Positions 152-36,914 of a DNA stretch of 64,000 bases are shown one piece after another. The notes under the pieces are model-generated. The model searched no databases and was not told the DNA's origin. It was given only the letters and a program-made list of their open reading frames with translations. The translations under genes were made by a program, and so were the position numbers. Source of the stretch: Candidatus Hodarchaeota archaeon (GTDB taxonomy: Archaea > Asgardarchaeota > Lokiarchaeia > Sigyniarchaeales > SOKP01); the NCBI GenBank assembly GCA_048887225.1, contig JBHLJY010000002.1, positions 288,001 to 352,000 of the forward strand, given 5' to 3'. How positions within the stretch are numbered: the first letter of the stretch is position 1; every line of letters begins with the position of its first letter.

Positions 152-1456
152 ATGTCACTACAAGGAAAATTTAAAAACAAATCCCCAGAAAGTCAAAAAA
201 AGAAAGAAATTTTGGTCATTACGTTTGTTGGTGTTATAATTCTTTCATCGATATTCATTTACACGTATGTTATAAATTATCCAATAGAATTGTCAAATTT
301 TCCTAGCATAAGAATCGTATCTACGGATGAGATTCCATTCGGTGAATACACTGAATGTACTGTTGAAGTAGATCGTAATGATGGATCTAATGTTAAGGAG
401 TTAAAAGGAAGAATAAAAATTAGAGGTCATACGAATGCAAAGGATAAAATTCCTAAAAAAGAATACCGTTTAGAGCTTAATCAACGGAAATCTCTACTTG
501 GGATGCGGGTCGATGATGACTGGCTTTTATTGGCTATGTATTTCGATTTCCCGCGCATGCGCGTTAAAATGTCTTTTGATTTATGGCGTAGTCTCTCATT
601 TATGAATCCTACTACAATATTACCTGATTCTGAATATGTAACATTGTATATAAATGGAGATTTTGAAGGACTTTATCTCTTAACCGAAGAAATTGATAGA
701 AGGCTACTTGGTTTAGACGATCCTCAAAATAATAATAATTCAAGCCTTCTTTTTCAATTAAAAAGGTCAGAAGATCTTACTGCATATTATAGGGGTAAGT
801 GGGATCAAGATTGGCCTAACGAGGATGAAGGATATTATATGATAGATTATGTTTTACCTGATTTAATTAATTTCATATCTCAATCAAATAATGATGAATT
901 TTTTGATACTGAAACAGGAATTTATTCATTATTTGATAAAATGAATTTAATCGATTTTCTAATCTTTAATATATTTATAAATCATAAAGATTTTTGGGAT
1001 ACAAACTACTATATAGCTAGAAATACTAATCCCAGTAAATTTTTTCTCGTTCCTTGGGATTTTGATGGAAGTTTTGGACAACGTGGGTGGGTAGTTTTTG
1101 ATTTTAATGAAAATAATGAAATAAATATTCTTAATGATAATTATCTTTATAAAAGATTGCTCAACAATAAAGAATTTCGGCGTGAGTGTAGCGCTCGTTG
1201 GATTTTCTTAAGAGATGTTCTCTGGACAGAAGAATTTATCACCGATATGTTAACAGACATTTATGAAGATATAAAGCCTTTAATTGAGTTAGATACAAGG
1301 AAATGGAAACCAATAACCGTTGAACATGAGTCGTTGATTGTTAATCGTTATCTACATAGTACAAAAGATTTTAATCTTGAAGAATTTATTGATGAGTTAT
1401 ACCAGTTTATACCTCATCGATTAGAATTCTGTGATGATTATTTCAATAATTTATGA
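152..1456 (+). CDS. CotH-family atypical kinase with N-terminal membrane anchor (paralog 1)
   Basis: Basic KKKE then hydrophobic helix; CotH motifs IKIRG..PKKEYRLEL, DDDWLLLAM, LYINGDFEGLYLLTE, DFWDTNYY, LVPWDFDGSFG. Confidence 0.9.
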   Translation: MSLQGKFKNKSPESQKKKEILVITFVGVIILSSIFIYTYVINYPIELSNFPSIRIVSTDEIPFGEYTECTVEVDRNDGSNVKELKGRIKIRGHTNAKDKIPKKEYRLELNQRKSLLGMRVDDDWLLLAMYFDFPRMRVKMSFDLWRSLSFMNPTTILPDSEYVTLYINGDFEGLYLLTEEIDRRLLGLDDPQNNNNSSLLFQLKRSEDLTAYYRGKWDQDWPNEDEGYYMIDYVLPDLINFISQSNNDEFFDTETGIYSLFDKMNLIDFLIFNIFINHKDFWDTNYYIARNTNPSKFFLVPWDFDGSFGQRGWVVFDFNENNEINILNDNYLYKRLLNNKEFRRECSARWIFLRDVLWTEEFITDMLTDIYEDIKPLIELDTRKWKPITVEHESLIVNRYLHSTKDFNLEEFIDELYQFIPHRLEFCDDYFNNL

Positions 1457-1619
1457 AAAGTATACCTAGGACCTAATTTTGGCAAAAAATCTATTTTTCT
1501 CTTAAATTGAAAGAGGAAACAGCTAAAGTTTTAATTGCTGCGTCTTTAAATTCATTAAATGTGTTAAATTTTGGTTTAAAAAAAAATTAATAATCTTAGT
1601 TAAATTTATTCTCAAAAAA

Positions 1620-2783
1620 ATGAAAGTTCTGTTAACGTTTACGTATGATGTATCTTTAGAAATATGGGAAAAAAAAGGGCTTATCTCTCGTGAAGTCTCT
1701 ATATATAAGGAGCTTAGCAAAAAAAATGTTGAGATCTCCTTTTTGACTTATGGTACTGATACTGATCTTAAGTACTCGGATTTGTTGGGAGATTTGAAAA
1801 TTTATCCTATATTCAATTATATTAGATCTAAATCAACGATTTTACAATTTATTAAATCTCTTCTTTTACCTTTAAAGCTGAGAAATGTAATAAAAGAGTT
1901 TGATATAATTAAAACTAATCAAGTTTATGGAAGTTGGATTTCATTTATTTCTAAAATATTATTTAAAAAGAGAATTATTATCAGATCCGGATTTGAATGG
2001 TTAAGCGGACATAGGACTTTTTTTAACAAAAAAGGAATAAAACAATTTATTAAATATTTACTTATGTATGTATATATTTTTATCATTGAATTCCTCTCAT
2101 ATAAAATGGCTGATGGAATTATCGTGACTGGAGATTATGATATTCCCTTTATCGTTAAATGTTTTAGATTGAAGAGCAAGTATAAAAAAAATAAAATTCG
2201 TCTATTTTATAATTTTATTGATGATATTTTATTCAAACCAACTTCATATGAAAAAAAAGATAAACATATTCTTTTTATTGGTAGATTATCTTACGAAAAA
2301 AATCTCTTTAACCTATTAGAAGCATTTAAAGAGTTGAATGGATTTGTTTTAGATATTATAGGAACGGGACCTGTAGAAGAAAAATTGAAACTTAAAGCAA
2401 AGAAACTGGGCATAAATGCAAACTTTCTTGGTATTATTCCAAATAATGAGATGCCTGAAAAAATAAATCAATATCAAATATTTATCTTACCATCTTTTTC
2501 AGAAGGAAACCCTAAAGCATTATTAGAAGCAATGAGTTGTGGAGTTGCTTGCATAGGTACAAATGTTAAAGGGATTAATAACATAATCAAACATAAACAA
2601 AATGGATATTTATGTGAAAAATCTCCTATTTCAATTAAAAAAGCAATTTTAAACCTTTATAATGATGAAAATTTCCGAAAAAAATTGGGGAAAAATGCAA
2701 GAAAATTTATTTTAGATAACTGTTCATTAACTTCTCTAGTCGAAAAAGAATATTTATTTTATCAAGAAATTTTAAGAAGATAA
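1620..2783 (+). CDS. Glycosyltransferase family 4
   Basis: ILFIGRLSYEKN, IGTGP, EX7E motif EGNPKALLE(AMSCG). Confidence 0.93.
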   Translation: MKVLLTFTYDVSLEIWEKKGLISREVSIYKELSKKNVEISFLTYGTDTDLKYSDLLGDLKIYPIFNYIRSKSTILQFIKSLLLPLKLRNVIKEFDIIKTNQVYGSWISFISKILFKKRIIIRSGFEWLSGHRTFFNKKGIKQFIKYLLMYVYIFIIEFLSYKMADGIIVTGDYDIPFIVKCFRLKSKYKKNKIRLFYNFIDDILFKPTSYEKKDKHILFIGRLSYEKNLFNLLEAFKELNGFVLDIIGTGPVEEKLKLKAKKLGINANFLGIIPNNEMPEKINQYQIFILPSFSEGNPKALLEAMSCGVACIGTNVKGINNIIKHKQNGYLCEKSPISIKKAILNLYNDENFRKKLGKNARKFILDNCSLTSLVEKEYLFYQEILRR

Positions 2784-2805
2784 ACCAAAAATTTAGCAGA
2801 TACAA

Positions 2806-3597
2806 ATGAAGAGAATCTTGGTAAATATCATTAGAAATGTATATATTTGTTTAAGCTATAAGTTAAATCAAAGAAGAGGATTAAGGAAATTCATATACGA
2901 AATTTATGAATTGATAAGATTTGTTGAATTTAAATTAAAAAATTTATTTTTGAAAAAATTTACCATTGAGTATATAATACATGTAAATCCTGAGAAAATA
3001 ATATATCAGAAAAACTTACAGAAAGGAAATTGGTTACTTTTCTTAAAATTTATACAGCCTTTACTAAATATAAGGTTTAATTATTCAATGCAAGTAATTA
3101 ATGGAAATTGGGATCTAAAGGAAAATTTACAATTATTTAATGAAAATATAAAATATAAATCATATTATCAACATTTTATAGAAGGAGTTGAATGGAAATA
3201 TACTGAATATTATAAGAGAGAAAAAAAGAGATATTTAGACGGGAAAGTTAGAAAAGAATATAAATCAATAGAGGATCTCGATTTAAAATATAGATACTTT
3301 GACAAATTATATCGAAAAATTGAGAGGGAAGGTTTTAAATCTCAACGAGAAATAATTAAATCCGAGGGCATTATCACAAATCATGGTCGAGGTGTTGTAA
3401 TAAGAAAACCAGGCGACGATATAGCCATTGCCATTGGAAGAAATGGGGAATTAATCTTTTTGGATGGAAGACATAGACTTAATATAGTTAAAATGCTATA
3501 TATTCAAAACCGGAATATTAAAAAAATACCTGTTCGCGTCTTAGTTATTCATCCAGAGTTTATATCAAGCTTAGAAAAAAAATCTAAGGATTTCTAA
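2806..3597 (+). CDS. ParB/sulfiredoxin-fold domain protein of unknown function
   Basis: KIEREGF..., DDIAIAIGRNGELIFLDGRHRL and IPVRV match the ParB/Srx DGxHR core; no HTH; lies between two GT4 genes. Confidence 0.65.
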   Translation: MKRILVNIIRNVYICLSYKLNQRRGLRKFIYEIYELIRFVEFKLKNLFLKKFTIEYIIHVNPEKIIYQKNLQKGNWLLFLKFIQPLLNIRFNYSMQVINGNWDLKENLQLFNENIKYKSYYQHFIEGVEWKYTEYYKREKKRYLDGKVRKEYKSIEDLDLKYRYFDKLYRKIEREGFKSQREIIKSEGIITNHGRGVVIRKPGDDIAIAIGRNGELIFLDGRHRLNIVKMLYIQNRNIKKIPVRVLVIHPEFISSLEKKSKDF

Positions 3598-3599
3598 TT

Positions 3600-4781
3600 A
3601 TGAATATTTTATATTTCGCACATTACTTTCCACCTCATAGTGGAGCTGCGGCAATATGTACTCATAAAATATCTGCATATCTTGCTAAATTTGGTCATAA
3701 TATATTAGTATTAGCCCCAGAGAATAAAGGTAAATTTTTTAAAGGAAAGGCTTCCAGGGTATTTAATAATATAGAAGTAATTAATTCAAATCAAATTGTT
3801 AGATTTCCTTTTAGCTTAATTATTTCGCATATAGAGAATCTTATTAAATTCTTAACAAAATTAAAAGCTAATTTTCGACCCGATATAATTTTTTCTCAAT
3901 ATCATACATTTCATTACGCAAGTGTAGTTGGGGGATATTTATCTAAGATTCTAAAAATCCCTCATATTATTAGATCTCACGATATTTTTATTGATTTAAA
4001 AACAAAATCAGTCCCTTTTAAAATTATCTTTTCAATTAATTACCCTCGAATATATCATTCGATTTGTAATTGCGATATAGACTATGTTCAAACATCAGAA
4101 ATGAAGGAATATTTATCAAAATTTAGAAAGTTTAAAGACGTTAGTTTTAGAATCCTCCATAATGGAATTGAAACTCAACAGTTTTATCCTCATAGAAACC
4201 AAGATTTTTTTAAAGATAAGTATGGATGTGATATAATTGTTTCATTTATTGGGCTAATGACACAGGATATAGGGATTCATAATTTTATTCAAATTTTACC
4301 AGAGGTATTAAAAACTCATAAGGATACTCATTTATTAATGATTGGAGATGGTCCTTATAAAAATTTTGTTTTAAAACTTGTAAAAAAACTCCAACTTAAT
4401 AAAAAGGTTCATTTTTTAGGAATTAGACCACATCATGAAATACCCTTTTTTATCAATAATTGCGACATTGGAATAGGACGCATTACTCATAAAGAAATGT
4501 GGAGATATTTTATACCCGTAAAGTGTTTGGAGTACATGGCTTGCCAAAAACCCTTTATAACTACACCAATTTCTCGAGATGCCATTAAAAATAATGATGT
4601 TGGACTTATATTAAAAAGAGATTTTAATAATAAAGAGCTTGTTACGAAACTTATTATGTTAATTGAAGACAAAAGCTTGCGAACAAAATTGGGAGAAAAT
4701 GGATTAAAAAAAATCAATCAAAATTTTAAATGGGAAGCCATTATGGAAGATTTTAATACCGATCTAGAAGAAATCAAGTAA
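3600..4781 (+). CDS. Glycosyltransferase family 4 (paralog of 33846..35063)
   Basis: MNILYFAHYFPP, HNGI, IGDGP, PVKCLEYMACQKP. Confidence 0.92.
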   Translation: MNILYFAHYFPPHSGAAAICTHKISAYLAKFGHNILVLAPENKGKFFKGKASRVFNNIEVINSNQIVRFPFSLIISHIENLIKFLTKLKANFRPDIIFSQYHTFHYASVVGGYLSKILKIPHIIRSHDIFIDLKTKSVPFKIIFSINYPRIYHSICNCDIDYVQTSEMKEYLSKFRKFKDVSFRILHNGIETQQFYPHRNQDFFKDKYGCDIIVSFIGLMTQDIGIHNFIQILPEVLKTHKDTHLLMIGDGPYKNFVLKLVKKLQLNKKVHFLGIRPHHEIPFFINNCDIGIGRITHKEMWRYFIPVKCLEYMACQKPFITTPISRDAIKNNDVGLILKRDFNNKELVTKLIMLIEDKSLRTKLGENGLKKINQNFKWEAIMEDFNTDLEEIK

Positions 4782-6786: not shown

Positions 6787-6940
6787 TATTTACAGTTTCT
6801 CTTAATATAAAATTCTCTTGTTAATTTCTTTACCAAATATTATCTTCTAAAAATATTTTAGCTTATTAAAAGTTCAGCCTTATAATCATTTAAAAAAAAG
6901 ATATTTTTATTAGATTAAAAACTATTTAACTTGAACAAGT

Positions 6941-7714
6941 ATGAGTAAAGGATTAATCCCAAAAATGTTTCAGAAGTATTTTAATCGCTTTGAGATTAAA
7001 TATAGAATTTCTATTCCTGAACGGGATAATTTAATCGACAATTTCAGACCATTCATGGAATTAGATCCTCATGTTAAGAAGGGCTATAAAAATTATGAGG
7101 TAAGAAGTGTTTATTTTGATTCTCCACTTAAAAGAGCATATTTTGAAAAAATTTATGGGATTAAAGTTAGGGTTAAGTTGCGAATTCGATATTATCCTGA
7201 TTTTCAAGTTGGTGAGAATGAATTAGTTTTTATTGAACTTAAACGTAAAATTAATGATAATGTTTCAAAGAGCCGGGTTTTAGTTCCATTTGCAGATTCA
7301 TTTGAAATTATTAACAGCCATACCCAAAAAGCGAAAGAATTTTATGAAAAAGCCTCTCAAGAGGATAGAGAAAAATTAAATGATATATGGTATCTTTATG
7401 ATAGATATAATTTAAAACCAGTTTGTATGGTGTGGTATCATAGACGACCATTCATTTCTAAGATTGAACAAGGACGATTTAGAATAACATTTGATACCAG
7501 CGTTAAGGTTCGAAACCATAATTTTGATTTGCATATGGGAGGGATTGGTGGTAGATATGTAATACCACCTCAAATATGCATAATGGAAATAAAATTTACT
7601 AATATGATCCCTGCTTGGGCAATTCGTATAGTACAGAAGAATAATGTAATCCAAGAAAAGATGAGCAAATTTGCCAGCGGATTAGAAAGAACAAAAATTC
7701 TGAGCATCTTATAA
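6941..7714 (+). CDS. VTC-domain (polyphosphate polymerase, CYTH/TTM fold) protein
   Basis: RFEIKY, VRSVYFDS, RVKLRIRYY, FIELKRK, YHRRPF, RITFD, IMEIKF, SKF in canonical order. Confidence 0.92.
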   Translation: MSKGLIPKMFQKYFNRFEIKYRISIPERDNLIDNFRPFMELDPHVKKGYKNYEVRSVYFDSPLKRAYFEKIYGIKVRVKLRIRYYPDFQVGENELVFIELKRKINDNVSKSRVLVPFADSFEIINSHTQKAKEFYEKASQEDREKLNDIWYLYDRYNLKPVCMVWYHRRPFISKIEQGRFRITFDTSVKVRNHNFDLHMGGIGGRYVIPPQICIMEIKFTNMIPAWAIRIVQKNNVIQEKMSKFASGLERTKILSIL

Positions 7715-7751
7715 TAAAGTTTTTTTATAATATTTAATAGGTTTTAATAGA

Positions 7752-8519
7752 ATGATATTTCAAAATATTGTTTTTGATGCGATTGATGCCTTTCTTGAAG
7801 AATCGTTTAGAAACATCGGGACAGATATTAATCTTTTAGATGTTGGTCTTGTTTTATTTTGGAGTATCTTCTTATCTTTTATTATCGCAATCACTTATAG
7901 AGGAACTCACAGGGGCGTTTCATACAGCTCAAATTTTACTCAAAACTTAGTAATAATTGGATGCGTTGTTGGAATTGTAATGTTAGTCATCGGGACAAAT
8001 ATTGCCAGAGCATTCACTTTAGTGGGGGCCCTTTCAATTATCAGATTTAGGACTGCGATAAAAGATCCGAAAGATGTTGGATTTATTTTTTTTGTAATGG
8101 TTGTTGGAATGGCCTGTGGAACTAAATTCTATCCAGTTGCTATAATAACGACTTTTGTGGGATGTGGATTAATTTATTTTATGACTTATTCCAATTTTGG
8201 ACAAAAAGGTTTAGCACAGGATATATTAGAAATGTACTTTCCTATAACTGAGGATTACGCAAAAATTTTAAGTCCTATTTTTGTACGCCATTTGAAATAT
8301 TACTCTCTTTTATCTGTGGATACAGTTGATAGTAAAACAAATCGCTTGAGTTTCATTGTTACTTTTAAAGCAAGGAGAAAATTATTAAATTTTAAAAACA
8401 AAAGAGAAGTTTTTGATGACTCGCTTACTCCAAAATCCGCATTATTGTCAGATTTGCAAAGTATTGCTTATATTACCAATATAAAAGTAATAGAAGGTTC
8501 CACCTCTGTGGAATTATAA
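7752..8519 (+). CDS. DUF4956 family membrane protein (MgtC/SapB-like)
   Basis: 4-5 hydrophobic helices; signature NIARAFTLVGALSIIRFRTAIKDPKDVGFIF..GMACG; directly downstream of the VTC gene. Confidence 0.88.
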   Translation: MIFQNIVFDAIDAFLEESFRNIGTDINLLDVGLVLFWSIFLSFIIAITYRGTHRGVSYSSNFTQNLVIIGCVVGIVMLVIGTNIARAFTLVGALSIIRFRTAIKDPKDVGFIFFVMVVGMACGTKFYPVAIITTFVGCGLIYFMTYSNFGQKGLAQDILEMYFPITEDYAKILSPIFVRHLKYYSLLSVDTVDSKTNRLSFIVTFKARRKLLNFKNKREVFDDSLTPKSALLSDLQSIAYITNIKVIEGSTSVEL

Positions 8520-8554
8520 TTTTTTTTACAACATATTATTCATACTTATGGAAG

Positions 8555-9826
8555 TTAGAATTGTACAAAATAAGAATCGCAAAAAACCAACCTATTTGGA
8601 ATCCATTCAAAAACATGATCAATAGATTTATCGATTTCCTCTTCCCAATTTTCTGCCCAAAGATTGTGGTACCAAAGATTAGTATCAATATCTAAAACCT
8701 CCTTAATTTCTTCATAATATTCCATTAACATATCTATTATTGCTTCCTCGACCCAAATTGTATCTCTCAAACTAAACCAACGAGTTTTACAATCATTTTT
8801 AAATTCAGCATTAGTGAGAAGTCTATCAAATAATAGATTATGCTGTCTAAGAAATTCTTCATCATTCCTGTCTGGCGCACTGTTTCTTCTCAACCATTGA
8901 CCAAAACAGCGATCAAAATCCCATGGAACGAGAAAAAATTTACTCGGATTGGTATTTCTCACTATGAAGTAATTATGATCCCAAAAATCATCATGTAAAA
9001 TAAAAAAATTGTAAATGTAAAAGTCAATCAAATTTTGTTTATCGAATTTTGAATAAATTCCATTCTCAACATCAAAGAATTCTTCTTCAGGTGTATTTTT
9101 GATGAAATAGACAAGGTCAGACATGATTGCATCCATAATATAGATCCCATCATATTCATTAGGCCAGTCTTGTTCCCATTCTTTATATAAATAGTAATGA
9201 AAATTATCATGCGCGTATGAAGATTGAAAAATCAAACTCGACATGATATTATTCATCGCATCATCTAGAGCAAATAATCTTCTGTCATTTTTTTCAACAA
9301 GAAGATAAAGTCCTCGAAGTTCCCTGTTGACATATACAATTACGTATTCGGAATCGGGCAATATAGCAGTAGGGTTTGATGGTGTTAAGGTTTGATATAA
9401 TTCCATCGCTAATTTAATTTGCATTCGAGGAAGATCACTATACATAGCGAATAACATCCAATCATCATCTTCCCTCATTCCAAGAATGGATTTTGGTTCT
9501 GAGAGTTCAATTCTGTATCCTTTCTTTGGTAAATCGGCGTTATATCTTCCTCTTATTTTAACAATACATTTGAGAGGGGCTATGTTTTCAGATTCATCAG
9601 GACAATTCAATTCAAATGTACCATCCACATAATCGCCATGTATAATCTCCTCCTCAGTCACTATGTTTATTACTGGAAAATTCTCTGGGCTTATTGGAGA
9701 ATTTCTAATGTAAGTATAGACAAATACAATAGTAACTAAAATAGCAAAAATCAAAATTATAATTACTAACTCTTTTTTCCTTCTATGAGTCGGTAATTTA
9801 TTTGTAAATTGATTCTGATCTGACAT
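8555..9826 (-). CDS. CotH-family kinase with N-terminal membrane anchor (paralog 2)
   Basis: RRKKE + TM; KIRGRYN..PKKGYRIEL, DDDWMLFAM, GLYLLVE, DFWDHNYF, PWDFDRCFG. Confidence 0.9.
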   Translation of the reverse strand: MSDQNQFTNKLPTHRRKKELVIIILIFAILVTIVFVYTYIRNSPISPENFPVINIVTEEEIIHGDYVDGTFELNCPDESENIAPLKCIVKIRGRYNADLPKKGYRIELSEPKSILGMREDDDWMLFAMYSDLPRMQIKLAMELYQTLTPSNPTAILPDSEYVIVYVNRELRGLYLLVEKNDRRLFALDDAMNNIMSSLIFQSSYAHDNFHYYLYKEWEQDWPNEYDGIYIMDAIMSDLVYFIKNTPEEEFFDVENGIYSKFDKQNLIDFYIYNFFILHDDFWDHNYFIVRNTNPSKFFLVPWDFDRCFGQWLRRNSAPDRNDEEFLRQHNLLFDRLLTNAEFKNDCKTRWFSLRDTIWVEEAIIDMLMEYYEEIKEVLDIDTNLWYHNLWAENWEEEIDKSIDHVFEWIPNRLVFCDSYFVQF

Positions 9827-9956
9827 AGGGATATAACCAAAAGGTAATAATGTTTATTTGTTTTTTAATTCAATTTTCACTGTATTATAAAACTTAATTT
9901 TTTAAAATATTTGAATTGTCTTAGTCTTAAAATATAGATAAACAAAATAAGTATCA

Positions 9957-11213
9957 TTAAAAACCTCCGAAATATGAATCACAAAATATTAATCGCTTCG
10001 GAATCCAATCAAACAATTTATCAACAGCCTCGTCAACTTTAATAACCCATTCAGTATCATAATACCAAAGATACCATTTATTTATGTCAGTTTCTAATAT
10101 ATCTTTAATCTCATCATGTATTTCAGTTAACATATCTGAAATAGATTCCTCACTCCAAATTGATTCTCTCAAGAAAAACCATCGATTTTTAACATCCTTT
10201 TTAAAATCTTTATTATTCATTAATCGAACATATAAATAATTTCTCTTAAATATTTCAATTTCAATATTCTCCTCTGGATCAGATTTTCTTCCTAAAAATT
10301 GGCCAAAACTCGAATCAAAATCCCAAGGAATCAGAAAAAATTTACTAGGATGAGTATTTCTGACCAAAAAATAATTATGAGACCAAAAGTCTTTATGCAA
10401 AATGAAAAAATTAAAAATTAAAAAATCTATCAAACTCATCTTATCAAATTTATTATATATACCATGAGAATCGTTGAAAAATTCACTATCAGATGTTTGA
10501 CATATGAAAGGAATTAATACACTGAAGACCTCATCCTTAATATAAATACCATCATATTCATTAGGCCAATCCTGATCCCAGCCATCGTTTGAATGCTCAA
10601 AAAAATTTAAATCGTGTGAATCTGATTGAAATATTAAGCTTGAATTATCATTATTTTGAGCATCATCAAGCCCAAACAATCTTCTGTCATTCTTTTCAGC
10701 AAGTAAATAGAGTCCTTGAAATTCACCATTTACATATAAAATAACATATTCAGATTCAGGTAAAATAGCAGTAGGGTTTGTTGGTAATAGACTACGCCAT
10801 AAATCCATTGATAATTTTATTCTCATGTCGGTTAAATCCATGAACATAGCAAACAATTGCCAGTCATCATCCTCTCTCATCCCAAGAAGCGAAATCCTAT
10901 CAGATAATTCTATGCGATATCCTTTCTTAGGCATTTGAGCATTAAGTCTTCCTCTAATTTTTATTTGACACTTAATAGGAGCGATATTTTCTGACTCATC
11001 AGGGCTTTCTAATTCGAAGGTACCATCGATATAATCGTCAGTATTAATATCTCCTTGAAATGTTATTTTTATTGTAGGGAATTCTTTTGATAGTATTGGA
11101 GTTTTGTAAATATAAGTGTAATAAACCACTGCAAAAATCAGAATAGAAGAAATAATAAAGACTATTAAAAAATCATTTTTTTGCTTAGAATTTGGCAGCT
11201 TTAAGCTAAACAT
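9957..11213 (-). CDS. CotH-family kinase with N-terminal membrane anchor (paralog 3)
   Basis: TM anchor; KIRGRLN..PKKGYRIEL, YVNGEFQGLYLLAE, DFWSHNYF, PWDFDSSFG. Confidence 0.9.
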   Translation of the reverse strand: MFSLKLPNSKQKNDFLIVFIISSILIFAVVYYTYIYKTPILSKEFPTIKITFQGDINTDDYIDGTFELESPDESENIAPIKCQIKIRGRLNAQMPKKGYRIELSDRISLLGMREDDDWQLFAMFMDLTDMRIKLSMDLWRSLLPTNPTAILPESEYVILYVNGEFQGLYLLAEKNDRRLFGLDDAQNNDNSSLIFQSDSHDLNFFEHSNDGWDQDWPNEYDGIYIKDEVFSVLIPFICQTSDSEFFNDSHGIYNKFDKMSLIDFLIFNFFILHKDFWSHNYFLVRNTHPSKFFLIPWDFDSSFGQFLGRKSDPEENIEIEIFKRNYLYVRLMNNKDFKKDVKNRWFFLRESIWSEESISDMLTEIHDEIKDILETDINKWYLWYYDTEWVIKVDEAVDKLFDWIPKRLIFCDSYFGGF

Positions 11214-11241
11214 TGATCTGAGATAATCTTGGTTAAGTTTT

Positions 11242-11256
11242 CTTATAAATATTTTC
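11242..11256 (-). promoter_or_regulatory. Candidate archaeal BRE/TATA promoter of the 11213 CotH gene
   Basis: Minus strand reads GAAAATA-TTTATAAG with the TATA-like box 29-36 nt upstream of the ATG; AT-rich background makes chance matches common. Confidence 0.35.
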
Positions 11257-11337
11257 CACTATTATTTTAAAAAAAACTTTGAATTAAATCTATGTATAAT
11301 AAAAAATATTAGATATATTGATTTGATTACAAAATCC

Positions 11338-11345
11338 TTAATATA
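11338..11345 (+). promoter_or_regulatory. Candidate TATA box for the divergent 11368 gene
   Basis: TTAATATA 23-30 nt upstream of the ATG; no Shine-Dalgarno visible. Confidence 0.3.
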
Positions 11346-11367
11346 GTTCAAATATTTCGAGAAATTA

Positions 11368-12708
11368 ATGACTGAAATTAAAAGTAGTCCTTTTGGTTTA
11401 AAGATTCAATATTATTTTAAGAGCTTTACCGAGATGGATGATAACTTATCTAATTTAGTAGCTAAAAATGGATTTAATAGTTTTTCACCCGAGGGGATTT
11501 CGAGTTATTTTACATTTCGCTTTCCAATTGGGAATTTAACTATGTTTAAGGATTATTTTAAAATACCATGTGGCTCAGAATTAAAAAATGACGAAATCCA
11601 AACTTATTGGTATCCAAAATTTTACCCAATTCCAATAAAATTAGAAGAGGCGCTTAAAAAAATTGAGGAAATATTATTTGCAGCAATTAAAAATTTATTG
11701 GAAGGAAAAGATAAATTTGGATTTGCTATGAGCGGTGGTGTTGATAGTTCTCTCATCGTTGCTCTCTGTAGGAAATTATATCCAGATATAGAACTTTATA
11801 CATATTCAGCAGGCTTTTATGGTGAAGATGAATTTGAATATTCAAGATTAATAGCAAAAAAGCTTAATACTATTCACACTGAGAAGATTTTATATAAAGA
11901 CGATTATATTGGGAAATATTCCTTATTAGCTCCATTAATTAGATATAAAGGAGAGCCATTACATCCTAATGAATTAGCGTTAGGAAATATTGAGAAAATC
12001 GCTAAAAAGGATGGTTGCGACATAGTGCTATGCGGTGAAGGTGCTGATGATATTTTTGGAGGTTATGGACAAAATTTTAGAATGTATTTGAATTATAAAA
12101 AGGATGTACCTTTTTTCAGATTCTTTCTAGACAATTATCGTTATTTCTCTATTGAAGATAAGGAATATCTGCTTAAAAATGAATATAATATTAATGATTA
12201 TGAAATATTAATGAATGCTTTAAATGAAAAAGAATTTCCAGGAGATATTAAGAATTATGTTGCTTATTTTACGCAAAAAATCCATACAATAGGACTAATA
12301 ACCCGTGGTGTTAATGCAATGCGCTATAATGGTTTTCCCCCAGGATTTCCTTATATTAATATGGATTTAGTTAATTTTGTAAATTCTTTACCATTCAAAT
12401 TTAAAATTAAGTGGAAAAGCAAGAATTCAAAAGAAAAAGCCAAAGGATTAAATTTTAGAGATATTAGCGAGAATTATGATATTCCAAAATTTATTTTAAA
12501 AAAATTAGCTGAAAAATACTTACCTCATAAAGTAATTTATCGTCCAAAATATGGCTTTCCTGTTCCATTTGACTTTTGGTTTGAAGACTTAAAAGATTGG
12601 AACTTGGATGACGAGATATTTAAGACAAATGATATAAGTAGATTGAGTGGATGGAAAAAGTTTATGATAATCAATTTAAACACATTTTTTAATGAGTTTA
12701 GAAATTAA
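11368..12708 (+). CDS. Asparagine-synthetase-type ATP pyrophosphatase/amide ligase lacking the glutaminase domain
   Basis: PP-loop MSGGVDSS, GEGADDIFGGY, RPKYGFPVP; N-terminus starts at remnant PFGLKIQYY with no N-terminal Cys. Confidence 0.82.
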   Translation: MTEIKSSPFGLKIQYYFKSFTEMDDNLSNLVAKNGFNSFSPEGISSYFTFRFPIGNLTMFKDYFKIPCGSELKNDEIQTYWYPKFYPIPIKLEEALKKIEEILFAAIKNLLEGKDKFGFAMSGGVDSSLIVALCRKLYPDIELYTYSAGFYGEDEFEYSRLIAKKLNTIHTEKILYKDDYIGKYSLLAPLIRYKGEPLHPNELALGNIEKIAKKDGCDIVLCGEGADDIFGGYGQNFRMYLNYKKDVPFFRFFLDNYRYFSIEDKEYLLKNEYNINDYEILMNALNEKEFPGDIKNYVAYFTQKIHTIGLITRGVNAMRYNGFPPGFPYINMDLVNFVNSLPFKFKIKWKSKNSKEKAKGLNFRDISENYDIPKFILKKLAEKYLPHKVIYRPKYGFPVPFDFWFEDLKDWNLDDEIFKTNDISRLSGWKKFMIINLNTFFNEFRN

Positions 12709-12736
12709 TTAATATAATTGATATTTATTTTAAATA

Positions 12737-13474
12737 ATGAAAATTATAATACTTGCTGCGGGCAAGGGGGAGAGACTTTTTCCTCTCACTAAAAATACTC
12801 CAAAACCTTTAATCGATTTAGGAAATGGAGAAACATTATTAGAAAGGCAGCTGCAATATTTATATAAGTCTAATGTTATCGATGAGGTTATTATTGTTAT
12901 AGGCTATTTACACGAACAAATTGAATCAAAATTAAAAAGTTATAAGACTGAACTGAAAATAAAAACTGTATATAATCCGTTCTATGAAATATCTAATAAC
13001 CTCATTACTCTTTGGTTAAGCAAATATGAAATGAATGAGGATTTTCTAATTGCCAATGGAGACAATATAATAGCCAGTGATGTTATTAGAGATTTAGTCA
13101 ATAAAACAAATGAAGGAATTTATGTAACAATCTGCTATAGAGATAAATATAGCGAAGAAGACATGAAGGTAAATTTAGATCCTAATAAAAAAATTCTAAG
13201 AGTAAGTAAAGAAATTAAGAATGGAGATGCAGAATCTGTTGGACTTGTTAAAGTCTCGGGTGAAAAATTTAGAAAAATCTATAAAGATATCTTGGAAGAA
13301 TTAGCGAGAAATAAAGATTATTTAAATAAATTTTGGTTGGAGACTTTTAACATCTTAGCAAATAAAGGTGTTGAAATTAATTCATTTGAAATAGATAAAG
13401 ATAAATGGCGAGAAATAGATTTTCATTTTGATTTACATGATATAACAGAAATGATCAAGAAATTCAAGATTTAA
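12737..13474 (+). CDS. LicC-like sugar/choline-phosphate nucleotidyltransferase (cytidylyltransferase)
   Basis: IILAAGKGERL..PKPL, YNPFYEISNN, ANGD, EEDMKV, AESVG, WREIDF. Confidence 0.85.
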   Translation: MKIIILAAGKGERLFPLTKNTPKPLIDLGNGETLLERQLQYLYKSNVIDEVIIVIGYLHEQIESKLKSYKTELKIKTVYNPFYEISNNLITLWLSKYEMNEDFLIANGDNIIASDVIRDLVNKTNEGIYVTICYRDKYSEEDMKVNLDPNKKILRVSKEIKNGDAESVGLVKVSGEKFRKIYKDILEELARNKDYLNKFWLETFNILANKGVEINSFEIDKDKWREIDFHFDLHDITEMIKKFKI

Positions 13475-13527
13475 CTCGTTATTGTTATTTAATTAATTAT
13501 TTTAGTATAAGCACCAAAGTTAAGAAA

Positions 13528-14583
13528 ATGGTTTCACACATTTCAAGTAAAATTCAGAAATTATTTAAAAAAATCTATAAATTAACAAAACCGAAATATA
13601 TTGTTCTAAAAAATAAATTTTCCGAGAAGAATTTTGGAATTATAGATCGGCTCGAAAAAATCAAATCTATCTCAGATCGAGAGAAATTAATAAATCTATT
13701 AATAAATGTATATGGAATACAAGTAGAGTTCCCCTTACAAATCAAAAATAAAGTGAAGGGAATTAAAACAATTCAAGGTAAAATTAATTACGATGGTATT
13801 TTCTATGATAGATCAAGTTTTAGTAGCTATGATGGCTTAGAAATCCCTATTTATGTCATTTATCCTTTTAATTTTGATCCAAATAAAAAATATCCTACAA
13901 TTATAATTTTCTCCGGACACGGATCTGCGAAACAAGCCGCATTTGAAAAAGATTCTTATCAACATGGCGCAGGTCTCGCTTTATCGAAGCAAGGATTTCT
14001 TGTATATGTAATGGAAAACCGAGGTATGGGAAAATTATCATATCTAGGTAGTCATCTTCGAATTGATGCAGTGGCAAGGATTATCGGTGGAACTTGGTAT
14101 GGAGAAATTATCACTGATGCTTTATGGTTAGTTGAGAATTTACATCATGAATCTAATGTTGATAATAATCGCATTGGAACTGCTGGTATATCAACTGGTG
14201 GTGCGTTAAGTCTTATAGTTGCTGCTTTAGATAACCGTATTTCTGCATCATATGTTCAAGGATATTTAGGTTCGTTTAAAAAAACTTTTGGGATAAGAGC
14301 TAATCATTGTTTATGTGGTCACATTCCAGGTATATTAAAAATCTGCGATATGGCTGATATAGCATCTCTTATCGCCCCTCGTCCTCTAATATTTATTAAT
14401 GGTACTTCAGATATATTCTATTATATTGACGCAAAAGAAGAATTTAATAATATTTTACCTATATATAAAGAATTAGGAAACGAAGAAAAACTGAAATTAC
14501 TGGTTCCTAAAGGTGTTTGCCATGAATTTTCTACTGATATTGCTATAAAATGGTTTTCTGAGCAATTTAAAACCAATCGTTAG
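13528..14583 (+). CDS. Alpha/beta hydrolase (carbohydrate esterase-like)
   Basis: SGHG, nucleophile elbow GISTGG, AALDNRI, HCLCGHIPG, APRPL, GTSD, HEF (Ser-Asp-His triad). Confidence 0.85.
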   Translation: MVSHISSKIQKLFKKIYKLTKPKYIVLKNKFSEKNFGIIDRLEKIKSISDREKLINLLINVYGIQVEFPLQIKNKVKGIKTIQGKINYDGIFYDRSSFSSYDGLEIPIYVIYPFNFDPNKKYPTIIIFSGHGSAKQAAFEKDSYQHGAGLALSKQGFLVYVMENRGMGKLSYLGSHLRIDAVARIIGGTWYGEIITDALWLVENLHHESNVDNNRIGTAGISTGGALSLIVAALDNRISASYVQGYLGSFKKTFGIRANHCLCGHIPGILKICDMADIASLIAPRPLIFINGTSDIFYYIDAKEEFNNILPIYKELGNEEKLKLLVPKGVCHEFSTDIAIKWFSEQFKTNR

Positions 14584-14632
14584 AAATACTAAATTCTATT
14601 TTTTCAGTTATTTATTATAATTTATAGATTGT

Positions 14633-15898
14633 TTACATATTATAGAAATATAAATCACAGAATTCTAAACGTTCTGGAATCCAATTGAACAAATGGCTAA
14701 CAGAATTTTGAATATTATTTTTCTTGTCTTCCCTGAATGAAATGGGTTCACGGGAATTCCATAAATCTACATCAATTTCTAAAACTTGTTTTATATCGTC
14801 ATATATTTCTTCCAATATATTTAGAATTTGATCTTCTGTCCATATTATCTCTCTCAATTCAAACCAACGATTTTTACAATCTTCTCTAAATGAAAAATTA
14901 TTTAATAATCGATGATATAGCGCATTTATTTTTACTATTTCCGATTCAGGATTCCTGTCTGAATCATATGTATCCCAAATATACCCTCCTAAGCTTCGAT
15001 CAAAATCCCATGGGATAAGAAAAAACTTACTTGGATAGGTATTTCTCACTATAAAATAATTATGGTTCCAGAAATCTTGATGATCTATGAAAAAATTAAA
15101 AATGAAAAAATCTACTAAATTCTGTTTATTAAATTTGGAATAAATTCCGTTTTTACAATTGAAGAAAACTTCAATTGAAGGTTGATGTATAAAATTAATT
15201 AAATCGTATAGAACAGCATCCATAATGTAAATGCCTTCATATTCATTAGGCCAATCTTGTTCCCATACATCTTTGTCGTAGTAATTTAAATCTGTCTCGT
15301 GCTTTACTTGGAATATTAAACTTGAATTGACGTTATTCTGACAATTTTCGAGATTAAATAACCTTCTATCATTTTTTTCAGCAAGCAAATATAATCCTCG
15401 GAACTCACCATTCAAATATAAACACACATATTCCGAATTAGGCAAAATAGCTGTGGGATCTGTATAAAGAAGGCTTCTCCAAAGTTCCATTGCTAATTTG
15501 ATTCTCATTCTTGGATAATCAAAATACAAAGAAAATAAAAGCCAATCATCATCTTCTCTCATTCCAAGTAACGATTTCGGTTCTTTTAGTTCTATGCGAT
15601 ATCCTTTTTTTGGTGATATTTTGTTCCAACCCAATCCACTTCCTCTTAATCTTATTTTTGAGTCTATTTGTTCAATTTTATTTGAATCTTTACAATTATC
15701 TACTTCAAATGTACAGTCTATATATTCCTCATAATCAAGATCTCCTTCAAAATTAATTTTTATTATAGGAAATCCTTTAAAACAAATTGGAATGTATCTA
15801 ATATAGTTAAAATACACTAATAATGACATAAGTACGGTTCCAATTACTGTTAAAACTTTTATTTCTTTCTTTCGTCTAGTAGAAGGAGATTTTTGCAT
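14633..15898 (-). CDS. CotH-family kinase with N-terminal membrane anchor (paralog 4)
   Basis: RRKKE + TM; RLRGSG..PKKGYRIEL, YLNGEFRGLYLLAE, DFWNHNYF, PWDFDRSLG. Confidence 0.9.
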   Translation of the reverse strand: MQKSPSTRRKKEIKVLTVIGTVLMSLLVYFNYIRYIPICFKGFPIIKINFEGDLDYEEYIDCTFEVDNCKDSNKIEQIDSKIRLRGSGLGWNKISPKKGYRIELKEPKSLLGMREDDDWLLFSLYFDYPRMRIKLAMELWRSLLYTDPTAILPNSEYVCLYLNGEFRGLYLLAEKNDRRLFNLENCQNNVNSSLIFQVKHETDLNYYDKDVWEQDWPNEYEGIYIMDAVLYDLINFIHQPSIEVFFNCKNGIYSKFNKQNLVDFFIFNFFIDHQDFWNHNYFIVRNTYPSKFFLIPWDFDRSLGGYIWDTYDSDRNPESEIVKINALYHRLLNNFSFREDCKNRWFELREIIWTEDQILNILEEIYDDIKQVLEIDVDLWNSREPISFREDKKNNIQNSVSHLFNWIPERLEFCDLYFYNM

Positions 15899-27732: not shown

Positions 27733-27848
27733 TTTATTACATTGTTTTTATACAGTTAATTATTATTTAAATTAATTAAGAACTAAAAATGTTAGTAACC
27801 TAAATTAGAAATGAGTTCTCATGTTTATTAAATTTATATCTGTTTATA

Positions 27849-29558: not shown

Positions 29559-29594
29559 GGTACTTGATTTAAGTTCAGCATAGTAAATATCTTT

Positions 29595-30314: not shown

Positions 30315-30487
30315 AAATTATTAAAAGGCTATCTAACTAAAAATAGAATTATTTTATTTAAACTAATGAGTGTTCTTTATTTATTCGTTTAATTAATTAT
30401 CTCTTAAAAGACTTATTGGGTTTTAATGATTAAATTTATATAGGATTATATATCTAATTGATTAAATTAACTGAATGAATATAAATA

Positions 30488-31804: not shown

Positions 31805-31822
31805 TAATAATAATAATAATAA
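31802..31822. repeat. (TAA)7 microsatellite beginning at the stop codon of the GT87 gene
   Basis: Seven tandem TAA read directly. Confidence 0.9.
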
Positions 31823-31828
31823 ACAGAT

Positions 31829-33697: not shown

Positions 33698-33845
33698 TAT
33701 TAATAATTGAGAGGGTTTTCATATAGAATTAAACAAGATTTATTATTTTTAACAATATATAATAACCATTATTTATAACTAAGTTTAAGAGATTATCTAA
33801 AATACTTTAATTACAGTTTTTAAAAAAAGATTAGTAAATTTTCAA

Positions 33846-35875: not shown

Positions 35876-35900
35876 AATAAAAATATAAAAATATATAGCT

Positions 35901-36740: not shown

Positions 36741-36914
36741 AAAATGAATTTTAAGATTATTATTTAAACTAGTTTTTATTTAAATAAGTTGTTATTTAAT
36801 ATGATAATATTATTAATAAAAATATTTAATTCTTTTATTAAGAGTAATTTTCGGGAAAGACCCAAAATCGGTTTTTTTTAAAAAAAATGAGAATAAAATC
36901 TCTTACATTTAATC

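What the first reader, a model, noticed from the sequence alone, without database searches (positions are those of the whole stretch)
152..15898. Candidate polyphosphate-fuelled extracellular phosphorylation system: VTC polymerase + DUF4956 + four anchored CotH kinases
Seen: a VTC/TTM enzyme (6941) is 37 bp upstream of a DUF4956 membrane gene (7752). The pair converges on two tandem CotH kinases (8555, 9957), with two more at 152 and 14633. All four have a basic N-terminus then one hydrophobic helix, predicting an outward-facing kinase domain, and all lie inside a glycan-assembly locus. Known: yeast Vtc4 polymerises polyP and threads it through a membrane channel; CotH is an atypical kinase often compared with secretory-pathway Fam20 kinases, of which Fam20B phosphorylates glycan xylose; VTC-DUF4956-CotH neighbourhoods occur in bacteria and I know of no demonstrated function. 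Inference: VTC and DUF4956 form a split prokaryotic VTC complex that exports polyP, giving the outside kinases a phosphoryl donor, and the paralogs phosphorylate surface glycans or glycoproteins made by this locus.
Basis: partly seen in the sequence, partly recalled or inferred. Interest (0 to 1): 0.9.

Follow-up and report, generated by a model that had tools for sequence, protein, structure and literature searches.

The report
Asgard VTC–DUF4956 pair with CotH kinases
An Asgard archaeon carries a widespread but functionally untested gene set: a yeast-type polyphosphate-polymerase-like enzyme inside the cell, its constant membrane partner, and four kinase-like enzymes anchored outside, here within a surface-sugar gene cluster; it might bring phosphate-bond energy to the ATP-free cell surface, but nothing here shows that it does.

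Summary
All six genes are present at the stated coordinates. There are four CotH genes, each with a basic N-terminus and one hydrophobic helix. A VTC gene lies 37 bp upstream of a DUF4956 gene. All sit in a glycosyltransferase/flippase locus.

The genome is a Lokiarchaeia (Asgard) MAG, in the same order as Promethearchaeum syntrophicum.

The VTC protein is Vtc4-like: its predicted fold matches Vtc4 best, and K200, R264, R266 and K281 are conserved. It is the only recognisable polyP enzyme in the genome (no PPK1, PPK2 or PPX found).

DUF4956 is a multi-helix membrane protein with a C-terminal ACT-like domain. This is an MgtC-like architecture. I found no sign of relationship to the Vtc1/DUF202 channel.

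VTC and DUF4956 co-occur strictly and lie adjacent:
- 7 of 7 genomes among 41 relatives;
- 4 of 4 genomes in a phylum sample of 151;
- 76 of 80 DUF4956 loci from many phyla.

CotH is a frequent but dispensable third partner (54 of 80 loci). Cthe_2159 or LTD proteins sometimes take its place.

Polyphosphate export and polyphosphate-fuelled kinases remain untested inference.

The trio is already in print beside Gram-positive pel loci, with no function assigned. This scan has noted it before on other DNA, in at least 691 genomes.

The parts
152..1456 (+). CotH-a, 434 aa: signal-anchored, predicted outward-facing CotH kinase-fold protein
   Evidence: Pfam CotH E 1.9e-45. B. cereus CotH 5jd9 E 1.8e-10. 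One TM at 20-38 after a net +4 N-terminus. HKDFW and PWDFD motifs present.
6941..7714 (+). VTC-domain protein, 257 aa: soluble, basic, Vtc4-like triphosphate-tunnel enzyme and candidate polyphosphate polymerase
   Evidence: Pfam VTC E 4.5e-36. A profile of Asgard homologs hits Vtc4 3g3q at E 7.9e-15 and Vtc2 at 4e-6. AF2 model pLDDT 89.7; best Foldseek match Vtc4 at E 1e-14, TM 0.68-0.70. K20, R81, R83, E99 and K101 align with Vtc4 K200, R264, R266, E279 and K281. No TM segment.
7752..8519 (+). DUF4956 membrane protein, 255 aa: N-terminal helix, five hydrophobic helices, C-terminal ACT-like domain; constant partner of VTC
   Evidence: Pfam DUF4956 E 2.4e-14. AF2 model pLDDT 88.6. The C-terminal domain matches MgtC C-domains 2lqj and 7qa5 at Z 8.2 and 8.1 among other ACT folds. 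Invariant Y49, G81, A87, G92, R98, R100 and G123 in 100 homologs.
8555..9826 (-). CotH-b, 423 aa, converging on DUF4956
   Evidence: Pfam CotH E 4.4e-38. TM 20-38 after a net +4 N-terminus. Catalytic motifs conserved.
9957..11213 (-). CotH-c, 418 aa, tandem with CotH-b
   Evidence: Pfam CotH E 8.7e-44. TM 15-33. Catalytic motifs conserved.
14633..15898 (-). CotH-d, 421 aa
   Evidence: Pfam CotH E 6.3e-40. TM 12-30 after a net +5 N-terminus. Catalytic motifs conserved.
11368..14583 (+). Context cassette between CotH-c and CotH-d: AsnB-like ligase, sugar-phosphate nucleotidyltransferase, alpha/beta-hydrolase esterase
   Evidence: Pfam Asn_synthase E 8e-39, NTP_transferase E 3.5e-14, AXE1 E 1.9e-11.
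1620..4781 (+). Context: two GT4 glycosyltransferases flanking a 263-aa ORF with no family match
   Evidence: Pfam Glycos_transf_1 E 6e-38 and 1.7e-22; no hit for 2806-3597.
15977..17485 (-). Context: Wzx-like polysaccharide flippase
   Evidence: Pfam Polysacc_synt E 2.2e-11.

Best explanation
This is the Asgard-archaeal form of the widespread VTC-DUF4956-CotH module. Shown: a soluble cytoplasmic enzyme with the fold and catalytic residues of the yeast polyphosphate polymerase Vtc4; next to it, its obligate multi-helix membrane partner DUF4956 with a C-terminal ACT-like domain; and four (five in the genome) signal-anchored CotH kinase-fold enzymes with intact catalytic aspartates, predicted to face outward, inside a surface-glycan locus. 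Inferred: VTC builds polyphosphate from ATP at the membrane. DUF4956, probably as an oligomer, docks VTC and passes the chain or its phosphoryl groups to the outer face. There the CotH paralogs use it to modify surface glycans or glycoproteins. Each paralog would have its own acceptor, because they diverge most just after the PWDFD motif. One supplier pair serves several client enzymes. My odds: the three families form one functional module, about 0.85. VTC makes polyP, about 0.5. Its product crosses the membrane via DUF4956 and is used or handled by the outside partners, about 0.25 (the confidence given here). CotH uses polyP specifically as phosphoryl donor, about 0.1.
For: Pair linkage: (1) VTC and DUF4956 are found in the same 7 of 41 related genomes, adjacent in all 9 instances. 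(2) They are found in the same 4 of 151 Asgard genomes, from 4 families. (3) VTC is present in 76 of 80 DUF4956 loci from about 20 phyla, always on the same strand and within 100 bp in 72. CotH linkage: CotH lies within 2 kb in 54 of 80 loci, and in 44 of the 54 loci with full flanks. In the P. syntrophicum-like genome the order is CotH-VTC-DUF4956, with a 4-bp CotH/VTC overlap. One relative, G032, shows joint decay: CotH with stop codons, a truncated VTC and no DUF4956. VTC: Vtc4 K200, R264, R266 and K281 are conserved and the fold is closest to Vtc4. Genome: no PPK1, PPK2 or Ppx-GppA found in a 98% complete genome, so VTC is the only candidate polyP enzyme and is not part of an ordinary storage cycle. 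CotH: N-in signal-anchor topology in all paralogs and in relatives; the equivalents of B. subtilis D228 and D251 are invariant. Copy number: 4-8 CotH copies per genome in the genus against a single VTC-DUF4956 pair. Where CotH is missing, the neighbour is another secreted protein, Cthe_2159 or LTD, which fits an inside-membrane-outside flow. DUF4956 has invariant arginines (R98, R100) and a conserved basic loop at the end of a short helix.
Against: No experiment shows polyP synthesis by any prokaryotic VTC protein, a DUF4956 pore, or a CotH that uses polyP (literature searches). DUF4956 has no detectable relation to the Vtc1/DUF202 channel, and its architecture is that of MgtC, a regulator rather than a transporter. 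Its conserved membrane residues are mostly small ones (G, A, S), which suggests tight helix packing rather than a wide polar pore. In S. intermedius, deleting the DUF4956 or the CotH gene halved aggregation and changed Pel levels in opposite directions, while deleting the VTC gene gave no reported phenotype (PMC12345266). That fits a linear VTC-to-CotH supply chain poorly. The CotH ectodomains are strongly acidic (net -21 to -35), which is unfavourable for binding a polyanion unless metal ions bridge it. The kinase-fold CotH of Bacillus uses ATP. In this window the CotH genes are not co-transcribed with the pair.
Confidence: 0.25

Rival explanations
1. MgtC-like regulatory reading. DUF4956 is a membrane-embedded sensor or regulator. 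Its ACT-like domain binds a small ligand, and it tethers or controls VTC. The VTC product (polyP, or hydrolysis of a triphosphate) stays in the cytoplasm and tunes phosphate or energy status, or the output of the envelope machinery. CotH enzymes are linked by regulation only and get their phosphoryl donor elsewhere.
For: The architecture (helical membrane domain plus C-terminal ACT-like domain) matches MgtC. MgtC C-domains 2lqj and 7qa5 align over 90 residues at Z 8.2 and 8.1. There are weak Pfam MgtC hits: E 0.2 here and 8e-4 in the G118 homolog. The authors of the S. intermedius paper report that CDD assigns the homolog to MgtC. In S. intermedius the DUF4956 and CotH deletions shift Pel in opposite directions, which looks like a regulator, and the VTC deletion is silent. 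No membrane-core charged residues are conserved.
Against: Profile-profile comparison with the Asgard MgtC-DUF4010 family gives only 2.3% probability. The ACT-like fold is generic: ribosomal S6 and NikR score as high. A regulator would not explain why the third partner is almost always a secreted protein. The genome shows no PPK/PPX polyP economy to regulate.
Confidence: 0.2
2. Surface-polyphosphate reading. The VTC-DUF4956 pair makes and exports polyP as an end product, a surface or matrix polyanion. The outside partners (CotH, Cthe_2159 beta-helix, LTD proteins) bind, anchor or trim it, rather than using it as a donor for kinase reactions on glycans.
For: The pair occurs without CotH in 26 of 80 loci and in 2 of 4 Asgard genomes. 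In CotH-less loci of Paenibacillus, Chloroflexi and an Asgard genome, a Cthe_2159 carbohydrate-binding beta-helix protein or an LTD protein sits beside the pair. The large CotH of P. syntrophicum-like genomes carries LTD domains.
Against: The CotH paralogs keep the catalytic and metal-binding aspartates of an active kinase, which points to catalysis rather than binding. Their ectodomains are acidic. Export itself is unshown.
Confidence: 0.12
3. Independent-kinase reading. The CotH enzymes are ordinary ATP-dependent kinases of surface proteins or glycans. They act during or before export, or on released ATP. Their proximity to VTC-DUF4956 reflects co-inheritance in an envelope island, without any hand-over of product.
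For: Bacillus CotH uses ATP. Here the CotH genes are convergent and dispersed, not in an operon with the pair, and a fifth copy lies on another contig beside housekeeping genes. B. subtilis has CotH with neither VTC nor DUF4956 (controls).
Against: CotH is on the same strand as, and within 2 kb of, the pair in 54 of 80 loci from many phyla (68 of 69 CotH hits on the same strand), with overlapping stop and start in Lokiarchaeia relatives. The convergent synteny is conserved across the genus. The three genes decay together in G032. The signal-anchor topology puts the kinase domain where no ATP supply is known.
Confidence: 0.1
4. Other-substrate reading. The VTC-type tunnel enzyme does not polymerise phosphate here. 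It acts on another triphosphate compound, for example a nucleotide, or it makes a phosphorylated lipid carrier. DUF4956 presents or flips that product for the outside enzymes.
For: Tunnel metalloenzymes include triphosphatases, adenylate cyclases and thiamine triphosphatase; these also appear, at lower rank, among the fold matches. No prokaryotic VTC protein has been assayed in the literature I could search. From my own knowledge, not tested here: periplasmic phosphorylation in bacteria is known to use lipid pyrophosphate donors (LpxT).
Against: The residues that mark Vtc4, including R in place of the first Glu of the ExExK motif and K200, are shared. Both sequence and fold are closer to Vtc4 than to Vtc2/3 or to other tunnel enzymes.
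Confidence: 0.08

Closest known systems
cotH / polyphosphate-polymerase-domain / DUF4956 accessory genes of Gram-positive pel loci (Streptococcus, Clostridia, Bifidobacterium; S. intermedius SIR_1594/1593/1592)
   Same: The same three Pfam families lie next to one another and beside exopolysaccharide genes. CotH is predicted secreted, VTC cytoplasmic, and DUF4956 a membrane protein with an ACT-like domain. No function has been demonstrated (PMC7112168; PMC12345266).
   Different: This one is archaeal (Lokiarchaeia). There are four to five short single-domain, signal-anchored CotH paralogs instead of one CotH-FN3 protein. The CotH genes converge on the pair rather than being co-transcribed with it. 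The glycan locus is of the GT4/Wzx/GT-C type, and no Pel family matches were seen.
Eukaryotic VTC complex (yeast Vtc4/Vtc3 or Vtc2/Vtc1; PDB 3g3q, 7ytj, 8i6v)
   Same: The catalytic tunnel domain: best fold match at E 1e-14 and TM 0.68-0.70, with K200, R264, R266 and K281 conserved. A soluble polymerase domain is paired with a membrane component.
   Different: There is no SPX domain and no fused C-terminal three-helix DUF202 membrane domain. No DUF202 gene was found in the genome. The membrane partner, DUF4956, is a different family with an ACT-like domain. It sits in the cell membrane, not a vacuole. Coupling of synthesis to translocation is shown for yeast (PMC9911596) and is only inferred here.
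Bacillus CotH spore-coat kinase (PDB 5jd9/5jda)
   Same: CotH kinase fold, with conserved equivalents of the catalytic D228 and the metal-binding D251.
   Different: Bacillus CotH has no membrane anchor, works in the ATP-containing mother cell on the coat proteins CotB and CotG, and has no VTC or DUF4956 in its genome (controls). The proteins here are anchored, face outward and belong to a non-sporulating archaeon.
MgtC family (Salmonella and Mycobacterium MgtC; C-domain structures 2lqj, 7qa5)
   Same: The overall architecture: a helical membrane domain followed by a C-terminal ACT-like domain. There is weak sequence affinity.
   Different: The Pfam score is below the cut-off (12.5 against 31.4 bits) and profile-profile probability is 2.3%. 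DUF4956 has its own signature (YRxTHRGxSYS, GALSIIRFR). It is always paired with VTC, which MgtC is not.

Membership tests
Vtc4-type polyphosphate polymerase (VTC domain, PF09359) | Pfam VTC domain above the gathering score | tested here: met
   125 bits against a cut-off of 23; profile positions 1-232 of 235.
Vtc4-type polyphosphate polymerase (VTC domain, PF09359) | Closed triphosphate-tunnel fold closest to Vtc4 | tested here: met
   AF2 model pLDDT 89.7. Foldseek best matches are 3g3r and 3g3q at E 1e-14, TM 0.68-0.70. Other tunnel enzymes score E 2.7e-8 or worse, TM 0.51 or less.
Vtc4-type polyphosphate polymerase (VTC domain, PF09359) | Catalytic and phosphate-binding residues K200, R264, R266, K281 | tested here: met
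   The HMM alignment to 3g3q, 5iiq and 8i6v places K20, R81, R83 and K101 at these positions. R81, R83 and K101 are invariant in 26 homologs; K20 is in the consensus. R264 and R266 are among the residues mutated to inactivate Vtc4 (PMC9911596).
Vtc4-type polyphosphate polymerase (VTC domain, PF09359) | E426 equivalent in the C-terminal half of the tunnel | tested here: inconclusive
   The HMM alignment ends near position 194. E216, K218, S242 and K243 are invariant and sit on late strands, but I did not map them residue by residue onto Vtc4.
Vtc4-type polyphosphate polymerase (VTC domain, PF09359) | Synthesis of polyP from ATP | not testable with these tools
   Needs an enzyme assay.
Eukaryotic VTC complex | SPX sensor domain and a C-terminal three-helix DUF202 membrane domain on the catalytic subunit, plus a Vtc1-type DUF202 subunit | tested here: not met
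   The 257-aa protein is a VTC domain only, with no hydrophobic segment. No DUF202 match in the genome. DUF4956 gives no DUF202 hit even at E 10.
Eukaryotic VTC complex | Membrane partner with the fold of the VTC channel | tested here: inconclusive
   No VTC chain appears among the Foldseek or VIA matches of the DUF4956 model, but the lists are filled by the ACT-like domain. The membrane part was not searched alone.
CotH kinase family (PF08757) | Pfam CotH domain above the gathering score; homology to solved CotH | tested here: met
   Four proteins score 132-156 bits against a cut-off of 23.8. 5jd9 matches at E 1.8e-10.
CotH kinase family (PF08757) | Catalytic Asp and metal-binding Asp (B. subtilis D228, D251) | tested here: met
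   The Asp of HxDFW (D280 of CotH-a) and the first Asp of PWDFD (D303) align with two B. cereus aspartates spaced 23 residues apart, the same spacing as D228 and D251. Both are invariant in the four paralogs. The B. subtilis numbering was mapped by spacing, not by a direct alignment.
CotH kinase family (PF08757) | ATP-dependent protein kinase activity | not testable with these tools
   Needs an assay. The paper describing the nucleotide pocket (PMC4922149) is not held.
MgtC family (PF02308) | Pfam MgtC domain above the gathering score | tested here: not met
   12.5 bits against a cut-off of 31.4, E 0.2. hhalign against Asgard MgtC-DUF4010 proteins gives 2.3% probability.
MgtC family (PF02308) | C-terminal ACT-like domain after the membrane domain | tested here: met
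   A beta-alpha-beta-beta-alpha-beta domain at 157-247. 2lqj scores Z 8.2 and 7qa5 Z 8.1 over 90 residues. This is a common fold, and unrelated proteins score alike.
VTC-DUF4956-CotH module (as at Gram-positive pel loci) | The three families encoded next to one another | tested here: met
   VTC and DUF4956 are 37 bp apart and CotH-b is 35 bp from DUF4956. The same holds in relatives and in 52 of 80 loci from other phyla.
VTC-DUF4956-CotH module (as at Gram-positive pel loci) | Co-directional operon contiguous with pel genes | tested here: not met
   The CotH genes are convergent or dispersed here. No Pel-specific family was seen; the locus is of the GT4/Wzx type.

The most novel reading that the evidence does not exclude
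In an Asgard archaeon, a Vtc4-like enzyme and DUF4956 form a prokaryotic polyphosphate synthase-translocase. It delivers polyP to the outer face of the membrane. There a family of anchored CotH enzymes uses polyP, not ATP, as phosphoryl donor to phosphorylate surface glycans or glycoproteins. This would be a general answer to how prokaryotes run kinase chemistry outside the cytoplasm.
Probability: 0.1. Interest if true: 0.9.

Novelty: new variant of a known kind. Interest (0 to 1): 0.55.

Why it matters
Prokaryotes have no known ATP supply outside the cytoplasmic membrane, yet secreted and anchored CotH kinase-fold proteins are common. If the VTC-DUF4956 pair supplies phosphoanhydride energy to the outside, three things would follow:
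- It would explain how extracytoplasmic kinases work.
- It would reveal a third prokaryotic route to polyphosphate besides PPK1 and PPK2.
- It would give a function to a membrane-protein family with over 5,000 representatives at the 50% identity level.

Two features make the system attractive for testing:
- This genome has no other recognisable polyP enzyme.
- The cultured Asgard archaeon P. syntrophicum seems to carry the same operon.

Even if the model fails, the strict pairing makes DUF4956 the obvious handle for finding out what prokaryotic VTC proteins do.

Tried and rejected
- Complex prediction of VTC with DUF4956, both given as alignments, returned no verdict (score 0.00, controls not run). 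It counts neither for nor against binding.
- The search for fused or longer VTC forms found none. This is weak evidence.
- An apparent VTC-DUF4956 fusion in a gammaproteobacterial contig (L049) is an artefact. A run of N hides the junction.
- phmmer of the single VTC protein against PDB sequences found nothing. Only the profile reached Vtc4.
- Foldseek and VIA searches with the whole DUF4956 model returned only ACT-like matches for residues 150-255 and nothing meaningful for the membrane part. No VTC chain was listed. The membrane part was not folded and searched alone.
- hhalign of DUF4956 against Asgard MgtC-DUF4010 proteins gave 2.3% probability.
- The sigma-70 promoter scan was no better than shuffles and is irrelevant to an archaeon.
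- My first guess of a methanogen host was rejected: no McrA in a 98% complete genome, and the homologs are named Lokiarchaeota or Promethearchaeota.
- No SSU rRNA is assembled in the genome.
- NCBIfam has no model for any of the six proteins.
- The CotH structure paper (PMC4922149) is not held, so I could not compare the adenine-pocket residues.
- DUF4956 topology (N-out with five spans, or N-in with four spans and an interfacial helix) could not be settled. Both give the same count of basic residues inside.

Full report
**What is there.** ORF listing and Pfam confirm every element of the observation.
- CotH (PF08757) lies at 152-1456(+), 8555-9826(-), 9957-11213(-) and 14633-15898(-).
- VTC (PF09359) lies at 6941-7714(+). 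DUF4956 (PF16316) follows 37 bp downstream at 7752-8519(+).
- The DUF4956 stop is 35 bp from the stop of the converging CotH-b.
- The surroundings are a large glycan-assembly region: seven GT4 genes, two Wzx-like flippases, two AsnB-like ligases, a sugar-phosphate nucleotidyltransferase, an esterase, GT2, GT87 and an AftA-like GT-C.
- The genome (3.27 Mb, 49 contigs, 98% complete) has a fifth CotH on another contig. That copy sits beside alanyl-tRNA synthetase, an FtsZ/tubulin gene and a Ras-like GTPase. The genome has exactly one VTC and one DUF4956.

**Whose genome.** It has no McrA.
- The closest homologs of VTC and DUF4956 come from MAGs named Lokiarchaeota, Promethearchaeota, Hermodarchaeota and Thorarchaeota.
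- A same-order relative, G038, has a single contig of 4,324,194 bases.
- So the window comes from a Lokiarchaeia (Asgard) archaeon. The cultured P. syntrophicum very probably carries the same module.

**The VTC protein.**
- It is soluble (no hydrophobic segment) and basic (47 K+R against 29 D+E).
- A profile of 26 Asgard and bacterial homologs hits the catalytic subunit Vtc4 (3g3q, E 7.9e-15) far better than the non-catalytic Vtc2/Vtc3 (4e-6 to 2.5e-4).
- Counting along that alignment, Vtc4 R196, K200, R264, R266, E279 and K281 correspond to R16, K20, R81, R83, E99 and K101. The last four are invariant in the alignment. R264 and R266 are among the residues mutated to inactivate yeast VTC (PMC9911596).
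- The AlphaFold model (pLDDT 89.7) matches Vtc4 best (E 1e-14, TM 0.68-0.70), ahead of other tunnel enzymes (E 2.7e-8 or worse).
- It lacks an SPX domain and the fused DUF202 membrane domain. The genome has no DUF202 gene.
- PPK1, PPK2 and Ppx-GppA were not found. This is therefore the only recognisable polyP enzyme in the genome.

**The DUF4956 protein.**
- The family is large: 5,303 representatives at E 0.001 or better.
- An alignment of 100 members shows an invariant core: Y49, G81, A87, G92, R98, R100 and G123. The consensus motifs are YRxTHRGxSYS and GALSIIRFR.
- The model (pLDDT 88.6) has an N-terminal amphipathic helix, five hydrophobic helices (28-52, 60-80, 84-99, 106-123, 127-146) and a beta-alpha-beta-beta-alpha-beta domain at 157-247.
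- Structure searches place the C-terminal domain among ACT-like folds. These include the MgtC C-domains 2lqj and 7qa5 (Z 8.2 and 8.1 over 90 residues), but unrelated proteins score alike. The searches give nothing useful for the membrane part, and no VTC chain appears.
- Sequence affinity to MgtC is weak: E 0.2 here, 8e-4 in one relative, and hhalign 2.3%.
- So 'split VTC complex' is an analogy, not homology. The nearest architectural relative is a regulator family.

**The CotH proteins.**
- The four paralogs are about 50% identical to one another.
- All match B. cereus CotH (E 1.8e-10 for CotH-a).
- All keep the Asp of HxDFW and the first Asp of PWDFD. By their 23-residue spacing these correspond to B. 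subtilis D228 and D251, whose mutation inactivates the kinase (PMC7821199).
- They differ most just after PWDFD, which may reflect different acceptors. This is inference.
- Each has a net-positive N-terminus and one long hydrophobic segment. So do the CotH proteins of relatives. By the positive-inside rule this is a signal anchor with the kinase domain outside.
- The ectodomains are strongly acidic (net -21 to -35).

**Linkage in related genomes.**
- Among 41 Lokiarchaeia genomes, full VTC and DUF4956 occur in the same seven. They are adjacent in all nine instances, each with CotH within about 2 kb.
- Congeners keep the convergent order seen here and have 4-8 CotH copies per single pair.
- In another family the order is CotH (about 885 aa, with LTD domains)-VTC-DUF4956 on one strand, with a 4-bp CotH/VTC overlap. 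That locus is not in a glycan region.
- One complete genome, G032, holds a decayed copy: CotH with two stop codons, a VTC fragment and no DUF4956.
- In an even sample of 151 Asgard genomes, VTC and DUF4956 occur in the same four genomes of four families. CotH occurs in only two of them.

**Linkage across phyla.** I took 80 DUF4956 loci from about 20 phyla and scanned them with my own HMMs.
- 76 have VTC, all on the same strand and 72 within 100 bp.
- 54 have CotH within 2 kb, and 68 of 69 CotH hits are on the same strand.
- Of the 54 loci with full flanks, 52 have VTC and 44 have CotH.
- Where CotH is missing, the neighbour is often a secreted Cthe_2159 beta-helix protein or an LTD protein.
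- The invariant unit is therefore VTC plus DUF4956. CotH is its commonest outside partner, not an obligatory one.

**Literature.**
- The trio was noted as accessory genes of Gram-positive pel loci (PMC7112168).
- In S. intermedius, deleting the DUF4956 or the CotH gene reduced aggregation by more than half in sputum medium and changed Pel levels in opposite directions. Deleting the VTC gene gave no reported phenotype (PMC12345266).
- Searches for CotH with polyphosphate, for DUF4956, and for VTC domain with archaea found no paper that assigns a function or proposes polyP-fuelled outside kinases.
- This scan has noted the same trio before on other DNA, in at least 691 genomes. One later check priced the export claim at 5 in 100.

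**Reading.** An inside enzyme, a constant membrane partner and an almost always extracytoplasmic third protein suggest that something passes the membrane. The Vtc4-like residues make polyP the likeliest product. I commit to that as the best single mechanism, at 0.25. I put about 0.1 on CotH using polyP as donor.

Four points weigh against it:
- the MgtC-like architecture of DUF4956;
- the silent VTC deletion in S. intermedius;
- the acidic CotH ectodomains;
- the absence of any biochemical evidence.

The complex prediction gave no verdict and is not counted either way.

Noticed in passing
L013 (G032:C1:3906000-3924000), about 8400-11200: A complete Lokiarchaeia genome holds a decayed copy of the module: CotH in two pieces with two TAA stops, a VTC match covering only profile positions 1-142, and no DUF4956. 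The three genes seem to be lost together.
   Followed up: partly
L017 (G118:C80) 1509-4901; L048 2996-4930; L084 6642-8693; L088 6624-8699; L103 6712-8952: Where the VTC-DUF4956 pair lacks CotH, a Cthe_2159 carbohydrate-binding beta-helix protein (Pfam E down to 2e-101) or a lamin-tail-domain protein sits next to it. This holds in Paenibacillus, in Chloroflexi and in another Asgard family. It may be an alternative outside partner.
   Followed up: partly
whole genome G000: No PPK1, PPK2, Ppx-GppA or DUF202 match in a 98% complete genome. The VTC protein is the only recognisable polyphosphate enzyme.
   Followed up: yes
window 26356-41661: GT87, AftA-like GT-C, GT2 and further multi-span ORFs without Pfam matches form a second glycan block. 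It resembles the lipoglycan and arabinan genes of Corynebacteriales.
   Followed up: partly
window 4774-6786 (-) and 2806-3597 (+): A 670-aa ORF and a 263-aa ORF inside the locus have no significant Pfam or NCBIfam match. A similar-sized 667-aa ORF lies near the module in the congener G001 (L012 2800-4803).
   Followed up: no
L019 (G000:C3:139227-142592) 658-1914 (-): The same genome encodes a separate 418-aa MgtC plus DUF4010 protein. It is conserved in ten related genomes and is not linked to VTC.
   Followed up: partly
L016 (G000:C4:150000-166000) 7793-9118 (-): The fifth CotH paralog (441 aa) lies outside any glycan locus, next to alanyl-tRNA synthetase, an FtsZ/tubulin homolog and a Ras-family GTPase.
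   Followed up: partly
window 152-1456, 8555-9826, 9957-11213, 14633-15898: The CotH ectodomains are strongly acidic (net -21 to -35), while the VTC protein is strongly basic (+18). The acidity is awkward for direct polyP binding unless metal ions bridge it.
   Followed up: no
L049 (gammaproteobacterial contig) 496-2073: An apparent single ORF holding both VTC and DUF4956 is an artefact of a run of N at the junction, not a gene fusion.
   Followed up: yes
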